Assembly (NCBI RefSeq): GCF_044647545.1
Contig: NZ_CP172818.1
DNA: 64,000 nucleotides
Direction: 5' to 3' (one strand)
Source of the DNA: Escherichia coli
GTDB taxonomy: Bacteria > Pseudomonadota > Gammaproteobacteria > Enterobacterales > Enterobacteriaceae
Shown here: positions 4,081 to 4,775 of the stretch, piece after piece
Position numbering within the stretch: the stretch's first letter is position 1
Layout: each line of letters opens with the position of its first letter
The notes under the pieces: model-generated
What the model was told of the DNA's origin: nothing
The model's input: only the letters and a program-made list of their open reading frames with translations
Databases searched by the model: none
Position numbers and translations under genes: made by a program

Positions 4081-4222
4081 TATTCTGCTCTGGAAGTAGA
4101 GTGTTAATTATCTTATAGAGAAACCTTAACGCTATTATATTTATTTAAATGATGAAATTAGCATAATCATTCACTAAGTAAATTTATATAGTATCTGCCC
4201 AGACACTTATTTATAGTTATTA

Positions 4223-4256
4223 AAGGCGCGTCCGACTGGTTCACCGGACGCACCTT
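4223..4256 (-). terminator. Stem-loop 3' of shoB, putative end of shoB mRNA
   Basis: About 11-bp imperfect inverted repeat GGCGCGTCCG...CGGACGCACC with 10-nt loop; only a weak U-tract follows on either strand. Confidence 0.3.
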
Positions 4257-4273
4257 AAGTACGTTTCCTTGTG

Positions 4274-4354
4274 TTATAAGAACAAAAGGAGCAGCTGTAA
4301 AACAGCAATGATGATTTTGATGACCCGTTTAATAAGGTATCGGCAATCAGTCAT
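4274..4354 (-). CDS. shoB: Type I toxin ShoB, 26-aa hydrophobic membrane peptide
   Basis: Hand translation of minus strand gives MTDCRYLIKRVIKIIIAVLQLLLLFL then stop; matches the known ShoB peptide; too short for the ORF track. Confidence 0.85.
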   Translation of the reverse strand: MTDCRYLIKRVIKIIIAVLQLLLLFL

Positions 4355-4429
4355 TCGTTTTTCCTTAAACAAGGAATGCAGCCGTTCAGATTAGCCCTTA
4401 CATCTCCCCAAAACTGAACGTGCGAGTTA

Positions 4430-4448
4430 TTGGAATCGAGTGCTGCAC
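4430..4448 (+). repeat. 19-nt direct repeat, copy 1 (TTGGAATCGAGTGCTGCAC)
   Basis: 18 of 19 identical to second copy at 4679..4697; lies in the shoB/ohsC intergenic region. Confidence 0.6.
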
Positions 4449-4678
4449 TCCACACCAGAGCTTTGACGACACCACTCGTTTCAATGGGGGAATTCAGTGG
4501 CATGGTGTAAAGCACAGCAAAATTGCCAATAACGAAACCGATTTTAATGTACTTATCAAAAAGCGGTCACGTTAATCTTTTCATCAATGTCGATTTCTTC
4601 GTAAAGGCTCGCGTTTTTTATGTCAGAGATTGCAAGTTGCTTGTACAGGTCAACTAAATTGATCCATAATTATTTCCG

Positions 4679-4697
4679 TTGGAATCGTGTGCTGCAC
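4679..4697 (+). repeat. 19-nt direct repeat, copy 2 (TTGGAATCGTGTGCTGCAC)
   Basis: 18 of 19 identical to copy at 4430..4448. Confidence 0.6.
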
Positions 4698-4717
4698 AAA
4701 ATTAAAGTTGTAAAGTG

Positions 4718-4750
4718 AAAACCCCCGTTCCTTACCAGTTCGGGGGTTTT
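4718..4750. terminator. Bidirectional stem-loop between shoB/ohsC region and acpS
   Basis: 10-bp perfect stem AAAACCCCCG / CGGGGGTTTT with 13-nt loop, T-rich flanks on both strands; 26 nt past acpS stop. Confidence 0.55.
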
Positions 4751-4775
4751 ACTTTATAAAGAGAACGGTATTTTT

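What the first reader, a model, noticed from the sequence alone, without database searches (positions are those of the whole stretch)
4430..4697. 19-nt near-perfect direct repeat flanking the shoB/ohsC region
TTGGAATCG(A/T)GTGCTGCAC occurs at 4430 and 4679 with one mismatch, 249 bp apart. Chance occurrence of an 18/19 match this close is improbable. It may mark duplicated regulatory or processing sites for the small-RNA locus.
Basis: seen in the sequence. Interest (0 to 1): 0.35.

Follow-up and report, generated by a model that had tools for sequence, protein, structure and literature searches.

The report
OhsC antitoxin–shoB toxin RNA pairing site
The 19-base repeat is real, but it is the already-published pairing site between the small antitoxin RNA OhsC and the leader of the shoB toxin mRNA: the two RNAs are made from opposite DNA strands, so their complementarity shows up in the DNA as a direct repeat.

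Summary
TTGGAATCG(A/T)GTGCTGCAC occurs at 4430-4448 and 4679-4697, matches at 18 of 19 positions, and occurs nowhere else in the window (0.03 matches expected by chance).

It is not a pair of duplicated sites. Copy 2 is nt 2-20 of the OhsC sRNA (Rfam RF02495, 95 bits, + strand). Copy 1 lies in the 5' UTR of the divergently transcribed shoB toxin mRNA (- strand), 76-94 nt upstream of its AUG. Because the two transcripts come from opposite strands, a DNA direct repeat means the RNAs are complementary. This is the published "19 nt of complementarity" of the ShoB-OhsC type I toxin-antitoxin pair.

Comparison with other strains supports function:
- K-12 carries a different 19-mer (TTGAGGGTGCATGCTGCAC) at both sites.
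- Seven positions differ from the window in each copy, and six changed to the same base.
- Six of the 20 duplex pairs show compensatory changes.
- No mixed A/B allele combination occurs among 94 alleles.
- E. albertii keeps the pairing.

Two additional points: the target is predicted to be masked by the mRNA's own 5' end in the unprocessed transcript, and the window's haplotype is unusually diverged at this locus.

Verdict: already known, low interest.

The parts
4679..4697 (+). Repeat copy 2: the antisense pairing region of the OhsC antitoxin sRNA (nt 2-20 of the RNA)
   Evidence: Searches give the sequence. Rfam RF02495 places OhsC at 4678-4755. The K-12 ohsC annotation starts at the equivalent G. 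The literature states that the 5' end of OhsC has 19 nt of complementarity to the shoB 5' UTR (PMC3919570).
4430..4448 (-). Repeat copy 1: the OhsC target site in the shoB mRNA 5' UTR. Read on the - strand it is GUGCAGCACUCGAUUCCAA, about nt 87-105 of the mRNA and 76-94 nt upstream of the shoB AUG.
   Evidence: duplexfold places the best OhsC 5'-end duplex here, at -34.2 kcal/mol. Six compensatory pairs are seen across alleles.
4678..4755 (+). OhsC sRNA (type I antitoxin): a largely unstructured 5' pairing region followed by a terminator hairpin
   Evidence: Rfam RF02495 scores 95.4 bits (gathering score 50), E = 8e-16, full model length. Fold.
4642..4670 (+). ohsC promoter (-35 TGTACA/TTGTAC, -10 CATAAT). 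It puts the transcription start at about 4678, one base before the repeat.
   Evidence: Promoter scan. The same hexamers are listed for ohsC in PMC11264685, Table 2.
4274..4354 (-). shoB ORF: the 26-aa hydrophobic toxin MTDCRYLIKRVIKIIIAVLQLLLLFL
   Evidence: ORF list. RefSeq annotates 'type I toxin-antitoxin system toxin ShoB' in identical genomes. K-12 b4687.
4222..4534 (-). Approximate full-length shoB mRNA (~313 nt). The 5' end is inferred from the promoter and the 3' end from the terminator hairpin at 4223-4256.
   Evidence: Promoter scan. Fold with z = -5.3. The literature reports a ~320-nt full-length form and a ~280-nt processed form (PMC5397157).
4541..4570 (-). shoB promoter (-35 GTGACC, -10 TAAAAT)
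   Evidence: The same hexamers are given for shoB in PMC11264685, Table 2.
4503..4533 (-). 5' arm of the shoB primary transcript (mRNA nt 2-32). It is predicted to pair with nt 78-109 and so mask the OhsC target. It is a degenerate, OhsC-like third element that would be removed by the reported +40 processing.
   Evidence: MFE and centroid folds of both alleles. Two compensatory pairs, 9:102 and 11:101. Three of the few K-12/window differences in the mRNA fall at 4524-4526. This is a prediction only.
4361..4376 (-). Small hairpin UUCCUU-GUUU-AAGGAA that sequesters the shoB Shine-Dalgarno sequence (AAGGAA)
   Evidence: Predicted in the MFE and centroid structures of both alleles. The AAGGAA RBS is reported as 100% conserved (PMC11264685).

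Best explanation
The two 19-mers are the interaction determinants of the ShoB-OhsC type I toxin-antitoxin module. OhsC is transcribed from the + strand starting at about 4678. shoB is transcribed divergently from the - strand starting at about 4534. A sequence repeated in direct orientation in the DNA therefore makes OhsC nt 2-20 the reverse complement of shoB mRNA nt ~87-105. In this strain the duplex has 9 + 9 Watson-Crick pairs around a central U.U mismatch, plus a flanking G.U pair.

Shown here or in the literature:
- The geometry of the two transcripts.
- The identity of OhsC.
- Covariation of both sites across alleles and species.
- Published repression of ShoB synthesis by OhsC.
- RNase III cleavage within the duplex region in K-12.

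Inferred:
- The primary shoB transcript is inert because its 5' arm (nt 2-32) masks the target region and a local hairpin hides the Shine-Dalgarno sequence.
- Processing near +40 frees the region.
- OhsC then binds there, far upstream of the RBS, and blocks translation. The likely routes are occupying a ribosome standby site, as IstR-1 does on tisB, and/or triggering RNase III cleavage.
For: Rfam places OhsC at 4678-4755 (+) at 95.4 bits. The shoB ORF and its annotation are on the - strand. The promoters are correctly placed and match the published hexamers. [quoted passage not shown]

K-12 has a different 19-mer at both sites, and 6 of the 7 changes are identical in the two copies. The joint probability under independent change is about 1e-7. 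Among 94 alleles there are three haplotypes, each internally matched, and no mixed A/B combination. Six of the 20 duplex pairs are compensatory, and 97.3% of cells are paired against 25-50% when the partner is slid. Cognate duplexes score -41.4 and -34.2 kcal/mol against -23.0 and -21.5 for cross-allele pairs. Substitutions are concentrated in the sites: 7/19 versus 9/294 in the rest of the shoB mRNA, p = 8e-6. E. albertii keeps the pairing, with one G.U.
Against: No experiment was done on this allele. [quoted passage not shown] The standby-site step is only a hypothesis for shoB in the literature. The predicted unpaired probability of the target rises only modestly after removing the first 40 nt (0.17 to 0.32). 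The A-to-B switch is essentially one historical divergence, so the number of independent covariation events is small even though many sequences carry each haplotype. The shoB transcription start is inferred from the promoter, not mapped here.
Confidence: 0.93

Rival explanations
1. OhsC binding works like Sok on mok/hok. It would block translation of a leader reading frame that runs through the target site and whose UGA stop overlaps the shoB AUG (AUGA), so shoB translation would be coupled to that frame rather than depending on a standby site.
For: A frame is open from the 5' end of the leader (GUG at 4515, AUG at 4503) down to a stop at 4351-4353 that overlaps the shoB start. It is open in most of the 94 alleles despite 7 changes in the target. 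A review leaves open 'another translational element, like Sok' (PMC4147584).
Against: No Shine-Dalgarno sequence precedes either start codon. Both starts lie in the first 40 nt, which are removed in the only translated form. An open frame of about 54 codons has a chance probability of about 0.07. A few natural alleles carry in-frame stops or shifts while shoB stays intact.
Confidence: 0.05
2. The repeats are DNA-level operator sites for a transcription factor (for example CpxR, which regulates this locus) and coordinate the two divergent promoters.
For: CpxR is reported to act at two sites (CB1 and CB2) in this locus (PMC11264685). Copy 2 overlaps the ohsC transcription start.
Against: The published CB2 site overlaps the ohsC -35 (around 4640), not the 19-mer. 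Copy 1 lies about 87-105 nt downstream of the shoB start, which is a poor operator position. The 19-mers have no GTAAA-N5-GTAAA character (the CpxR consensus is from my own knowledge). A protein site would not be expected to change 7 of 19 bases in parallel at both copies while preserving exact mutual identity. In two E. albertii genomes an IS1 separates the two halves by a further 777 bp with both 19-mers intact.
Confidence: 0.02
3. The repeat is a chance match or an inert remnant of a local duplication with no function.
For: Only 19 nt are repeated and there is no extended homology in the flanks.
Against: Chance expectation is 0.03. The concerted change of both copies across haplotypes and species cannot be explained without selection for identity or gene conversion.
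Confidence: 0.01

Closest known systems
ShoB-OhsC type I toxin-antitoxin locus of E. coli K-12 (Fozo et al. 2008, Mol Microbiol 70:1076; formerly ryfB/ryfC)
   Same: Same locus and synteny (yfhL | shoB | ohsC | acpS). Same 26-aa toxin apart from one residue (L22 here, I22 in K-12). Same sRNA family (RF02495), same divergent arrangement, and same position and length of the complementarity (19 nt; OhsC 5' end against the shoB 5' UTR).
   Different: The pairing sequence itself differs at 7 of 19 positions (TTGGAATCG[A/T]GTGCTGCAC versus TTGAGGGTGCATGCTGCAC). This allele carries a central U.U mismatch, whereas K-12 is perfect. The promoter-to-promoter spacer is about 20% diverged.
tisB/IstR-1 (Vogel 2004; Darfeuille 2007)
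   Same: A divergently encoded sRNA pairs through its 5' end with about 20 nt far upstream of a sequestered RBS. The primary transcript is inert and a 5'-processed form is active. RNase III cleaves the duplex. Here too the complementarity appears in the DNA as a short direct repeat.
   Different: There is no sequence homology and the toxin is different. A standby site has been shown for tisB but is only hypothesised for shoB. shoB is not known to be under LexA control.
zorO/OrzO and dinQ/AgrB
   Same: Same architecture: divergent genes and short 5'-end pairing within a long 5' UTR. In zor/orz the pairing region is also hypervariable between copies and alleles, and this sets specificity (PMC3919570; PMC11264685).
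   Different: zor/orz variation separates paralogous copies within one genome. shoB-ohsC is single-copy, so its variation is allelic between lineages.

Membership tests
ShoB-OhsC type I toxin-antitoxin locus | An sRNA belonging to the OhsC family | tested here: met
   RF02495 scores 95.4 bits (gathering score 50), full length, at 4678-4755 (+).
ShoB-OhsC type I toxin-antitoxin locus | A 26-aa hydrophobic ShoB ORF with an AAGGAA ribosome-binding site | tested here: met
   ORF at 4274-4354 (-), MTDCRYLIKRVIKIIIAVLQLLLLFL. Annotated as ShoB in RefSeq genomes that are 100% identical over the region. AAGGAA lies 7 nt upstream of the ATG.
ShoB-OhsC type I toxin-antitoxin locus | Divergent, non-overlapping genes between yfhL and acpS | tested here: met
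ShoB-OhsC type I toxin-antitoxin locus | About 19 nt of complementarity between the OhsC 5' end and the shoB 5' UTR | tested here: met
   18 of 19 Watson-Crick pairs plus a flanking G.U; -34.2 kcal/mol. Covariation.
ShoB-OhsC type I toxin-antitoxin locus | ShoB overproduction is toxic and OhsC represses ShoB synthesis | not testable with these tools
   Known for K-12 from the literature only (cited). Not tested for this allele.
Standby-site antisense control (tisB/IstR-1 type) | The sRNA pairs far upstream of the RBS, not over it | tested here: met
   The target lies 76-94 nt upstream of the AUG.
Standby-site antisense control (tisB/IstR-1 type) | The RBS is sequestered in stable structure | tested here: inconclusive
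   A UUCCUU/AAGGAA hairpin is predicted in both alleles. This is in silico only.
Standby-site antisense control (tisB/IstR-1 type) | The primary transcript is inert because its 5' end masks the standby/target region, and 5' processing activates it | tested here: inconclusive
   Predicted pairing of nt 2-32 with nt 78-109, z = -5.3, with two compensatory pairs. The +40 active form comes from the literature. The predicted gain in accessibility is modest.
Standby-site antisense control (tisB/IstR-1 type) | 30S subunits bind the single-stranded standby site and the sRNA competes with them | not testable with these tools
   This is a hypothesis for shoB in PMC5397157 and PMC7708055.

The most novel reading that the evidence does not exclude
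The window carries a distinct 'specificity allele' of shoB-ohsC. It is found in about 32% of complete E. coli genomes, including strain 536, a Nissle-derived strain and O157:H7. Its pairing sites and promoter spacer are more diverged from the K-12 allele (20-37%) than K-12's are from the sister species E. albertii (4-11%), even though the flanking genes follow the normal species tree. This could mean that the antitoxin-toxin recognition sequence is under diversifying or balancing selection, or was imported from an unsampled lineage. The result would be two mutually non-cross-reacting toxin-antitoxin types within one species. The fixed central U.U mismatch might then be a tuned feature, for example weaker repression or altered RNase III cleavage.
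Probability: 0.2. Interest if true: 0.45.

Novelty: already known. Interest (0 to 1): 0.15.

Why it matters
The main practical value is as a rule for reading raw sequence. A short direct repeat shared between two divergently (or convergently) transcribed units is the DNA signature of a trans-acting antisense pair. The same signature marks tisB/istR-1, zor/orz and dinQ/agrB.

The biology itself, OhsC repressing the ShoB membrane toxin, is established. The small addition from this work bears on a gap stated in a 2024 survey (PMC11264685): the variable pairing regions of shoB and ohsC vary in lockstep. All three haplotypes sampled here keep 18-19 of the 19 repeat positions paired, and the cross-allele duplexes are predicted to be much weaker.

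Tried and rejected
- The primary paper (Fozo 2008, PMC2597788) and the 2012 review (doi 10.4161/rna.22568) are not held. The '19 nt' statement is therefore cited second-hand from PMC3919570.
It returned only E. coli and a truncated E. albertii contig among Escherichia, so E. fergusonii, E. marmotae and E. ruysiae were not sampled. E. albertii was recovered through an exact-AcpS lookup instead.
- blastn and tblastn of shoB/ohsC against 78 acpS loci of other genera (Citrobacter, Salmonella, Enterobacter, Klebsiella, Kluyvera, Erwinia, Pectobacterium and others) gave only chance-level peptide hits. The locus is therefore Escherichia-restricted, as published (PMC2887945).
- A full-length OhsC/shoB duplexfold suggested extra pairing beyond the 19-mer (-52.7 kcal/mol for this allele, -58.5 for K-12). 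I disregarded it because it ignores the stable OhsC terminator hairpin.
- The leader-ORF coupling idea was examined and judged weak.
- The CpxR-operator idea was rejected from the published site positions.

Full report
**Observation**

The window contains TTGGAATCGAGTGCTGCAC at 4430-4448 and TTGGAATCGTGTGCTGCAC at 4679-4697, both on the + strand. The copies match at 18 of 19 positions and their starts are 249 bp apart. Allowing up to three mismatches on either strand, these are the only two occurrences in the 64 kb. Dinucleotide-preserving shuffles give 0.03 matches on average, and none of 100 shuffles gave two. The repeat does not extend into the flanks.

**Context**

The region is the E. coli yfhL - shoB - ohsC - acpS interval. 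It is 100% identical to several RefSeq E. coli chromosomes that annotate "type I toxin-antitoxin system toxin ShoB" here.

- The shoB ORF is at 4274-4354 on the - strand and encodes the 26-aa peptide MTDCRYLIKRVIKIIIAVLQLLLLFL.
- Rfam's OhsC model (RF02495) matches 4678-4755 on the + strand over its full length, at 95.4 bits against a gathering score of 50.
- The curated K-12 ohsC gene begins at the equivalent G.
- A sigma-70-like promoter for ohsC (TGTACA, 17-nt spacer, CATAAT; 4642-4670, +) and one for shoB (GTGACC, 18-nt spacer, TAAAAT; 4570-4541, -) are found by the scan. They match the hexamers tabulated for these genes in PMC11264685.
- Copy 2 is therefore nt 2-20 of OhsC.
- With a shoB start near 4534, copy 1 is about nt 87-105 of the shoB mRNA. 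That is 76-94 nt upstream of the AUG at 4354.

**What the repeat is**

The two RNAs are made from opposite strands. A sequence that is repeated in direct orientation in the DNA therefore appears in sense in one RNA and as its reverse complement in the other. The direct repeat is RNA-RNA complementarity. [quoted passage not shown] 2008). The same arrangement is described for tisB/istR-1, zor/orz and dinQ/agrB.

In this strain the duplex has 9 + 9 Watson-Crick pairs around a central U.U mismatch, plus a flanking G.U. Its predicted energy is -34.2 kcal/mol, and it is the best site for the OhsC 5' end anywhere on the shoB mRNA.

**Comparative test**

K-12 has a different 19-mer, TTGAGGGTGCATGCTGCAC, and it is perfect at both sites. 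Relative to the window, seven positions differ in each copy, they are the same seven positions, and six changed to the same base. Under independent change this has a joint probability of about 1e-7.

Substitutions are concentrated in the two sites:

| Region | Substitutions (K-12 vs window) | Fisher p |
|---|---|---|
| shoB target 19-mer | 7/19 | |
| Rest of shoB mRNA | 9/294 | 8e-6 |
| OhsC pairing 19-mer | 7/19 | |
| Rest of OhsC | 2/59 | 5e-4 |

I extracted both sites from 17 RefSeq E. coli loci chosen across the identity range, and from 78 metagenome contigs. The contigs were retrieved with an OhsC pattern that left the variable positions free. Only three haplotypes occur:

| Haplotype | Count | Copy 1 / copy 2 | Pairing |
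|---|---|---|---|
| B (window type) | ~40 | TTGGAATCGAGTGCTGCAC / TTGGAATCGTGTGCTGCAC | always the same U.U mismatch |
| A1 (K-12) | ~41 | TTGAGGGTGCATGCTGCAC at both | perfect |
| A2 | ~11 | TTGAGGGTGCATGCTGCAC / TTGAGGGTGCGTGCTGCAC | one G.U wobble |

There are also a few singletons. No sequence combines an A-type site with a B-type site.

Scored formally on the 11 distinct haplotype rows, the 20-pair intermolecular helix has six pairs with changes on both sides. 97.3% of cells are paired, against 25-50% when the partner strand is slid by 1-3 columns. Predicted cross-allele duplexes are much weaker (-23.0 and -21.5 kcal/mol) than cognate ones (-41.4 and -34.2).

In the sister species E. albertii the sites are TTGAGGATGCGTGCTGCAC and TTGAGGGTGCGTGCTGCAC, which gives 18 Watson-Crick pairs plus one G.U. 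In Citrobacter, Salmonella, Enterobacter, Klebsiella and other genera the acpS-downstream region has no shoB or ohsC. This agrees with the published Escherichia/Shigella restriction (PMC2887945).

One caveat applies. The A/B split is essentially one historical divergence, and the sampled sequences are not independent. The strength of the argument lies in the roughly 13 coordinated substitutions, not in the number of genomes.

**Mechanism**

Established in the literature for K-12:
- ShoB is a toxic membrane peptide, and OhsC represses its synthesis (cited).
- Only a 5'-processed (~280 nt, "+40") form of the ~320-nt shoB mRNA is translated.
- RNase III cleavage is detected in the duplex region in vivo (PMC6212723).

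Inferred here:
- The full-length leader is predicted to fold into a long hairpin in which nt 2-32 (window 4503-4533) pair with nt 78-109 and so cover the OhsC target. The fold energy is -111 kcal/mol with z = -5.3, and the same fold is predicted for both alleles.
- Two pairs of this hairpin (9:102 and 11:101) change on both sides between haplotypes. Three of the few remaining K-12/window differences in the mRNA fall in this arm, at 4524-4526.
- The Shine-Dalgarno sequence AAGGAA is predicted to be closed in a UUCCUU/AAGGAA hairpin at 4361-4376.

This anatomy matches the tisB/IstR-1 scheme: an inert primary transcript, activation by 5' trimming, and antisense binding at an upstream region needed for ribosome loading. 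That is what Wen et al. and Romilly et al. propose for shoB without proof.

I put the pairing role at about 0.93 and the standby-site detail at roughly 0.5. The predicted increase in target accessibility after trimming is modest (0.17 to 0.32), and none of the structure has been probed.

**Rival explanations**

- A Sok/mok-like coupling model is suggested by a leader reading frame that runs through the target and ends in a UGA overlapping the shoB AUG. However, it has no Shine-Dalgarno sequence, its start codons lie in the 40 nt that are removed from the active form, and a few natural alleles interrupt it.
- A DNA operator model (for example CpxR) does not fit the published site positions, the location of copy 1 deep inside a transcript, or the parallel 7-base switch.
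- Chance, or an inert duplication remnant, is excluded by the covariation.

**An extra, unexplained point**

Between the window strain and K-12, the flanking genes differ by 2-3%, and each differs from E. albertii by 6-13%, as expected. At this locus the pattern is different:

| Region | B vs K-12 | B vs E. albertii | K-12 vs E. albertii |
|---|---|---|---|
| Promoter-to-promoter spacer (4535-4677) | 20% | 21% | 4% |
| shoB target 19-mer | 7/19 | 6/19 | 2/19 |
| OhsC 19-mer | 7/19 | 6/19 | 1/19 |

The leader segment between the sites (4449-4502) is almost invariant in all three. Haplotype B accounts for about 32% of complete E. coli genomes (identity bands). This is consistent with the 33.1% TTGTAC -35 variant reported in PMC11264685.

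Haplotype B is therefore either fast-evolving, an old trans-species allele, or a short import from an unsampled lineage. I could not resolve this because other Escherichia species were not obtained.

[quoted passage not shown] The lockstep variation shown here is a modest addition to that point.

**Verdict**

The repeat is real, non-random and functional. [quoted passage not shown] Novelty: already known. Interest: low.

Noticed in passing
window 4535-4677 (and 4430-4448, 4679-4697): The shoB-ohsC promoter spacer and both pairing sites of this strain's haplotype are 20-37% diverged from K-12 and from E. albertii. K-12 and E. albertii differ by only 4-11% there. The flanking genes follow the normal tree (2-3% within E. 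coli, 6-13% to E. albertii). This could be an old, imported or fast-evolving haplotype.
   Followed up: partly
window 4503-4533 (- strand): The 5' end of the shoB primary transcript resembles the OhsC 5' end (UUGGCAAUUUUGCUGUGC versus UUGGAAUCGUGUGCUGCAC). It is predicted to pair with the same target region, with two compensatory pairs between haplotypes. It acts as a cis 'mimic' of the antitoxin that would be removed by the reported +40 processing.
   Followed up: partly
window 4351-4515 (- strand): A leader reading frame (GUG at 4515, in-frame AUG at 4503) runs through the OhsC target and ends with a UGA overlapping the shoB AUG (AUGA). It is open in most of the 94 alleles, but it lacks a Shine-Dalgarno sequence and is interrupted in a few natural alleles. 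It is probably not functional.
   Followed up: partly
window 4712-4759: The OhsC terminator hairpin is nearly palindromic, with U-runs on both strands; Rfam also gives a weak reverse-strand hit of 25 bits. It lies 20 nt from the stop codon of the convergent acpS gene (4776). It probably serves as a bidirectional terminator for ohsC and the pdxJ-acpS operon.
   Followed up: no
L179 and L181 (E. albertii), equivalent to window ~4586: An IS1 (777-bp insertion) sits between the shoB and ohsC promoters in two E. albertii genomes, 92 nt upstream of the OhsC start. shoB, ohsC and both 19-mers remain intact, which fits the pair acting in trans.
   Followed up: partly
window 4641-4655: This haplotype has TTGTACAGGTCAACT where K-12 has TTGTAAAAGATAAGT. 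The latter is the region reported as CpxR site CB2, which overlaps the ohsC -35. The window allele therefore appears to lack the K-12 CB2 sequence, and Cpx control of ohsC may differ between haplotypes.
   Followed up: no
window 4291 (shoB codon 22): ShoB has L22 in this haplotype (…LQLLLLFL) and I22 in K-12, most other alleles and E. albertii (…LQLILLFL). Some B-haplotype alleles carry I22.
   Followed up: no
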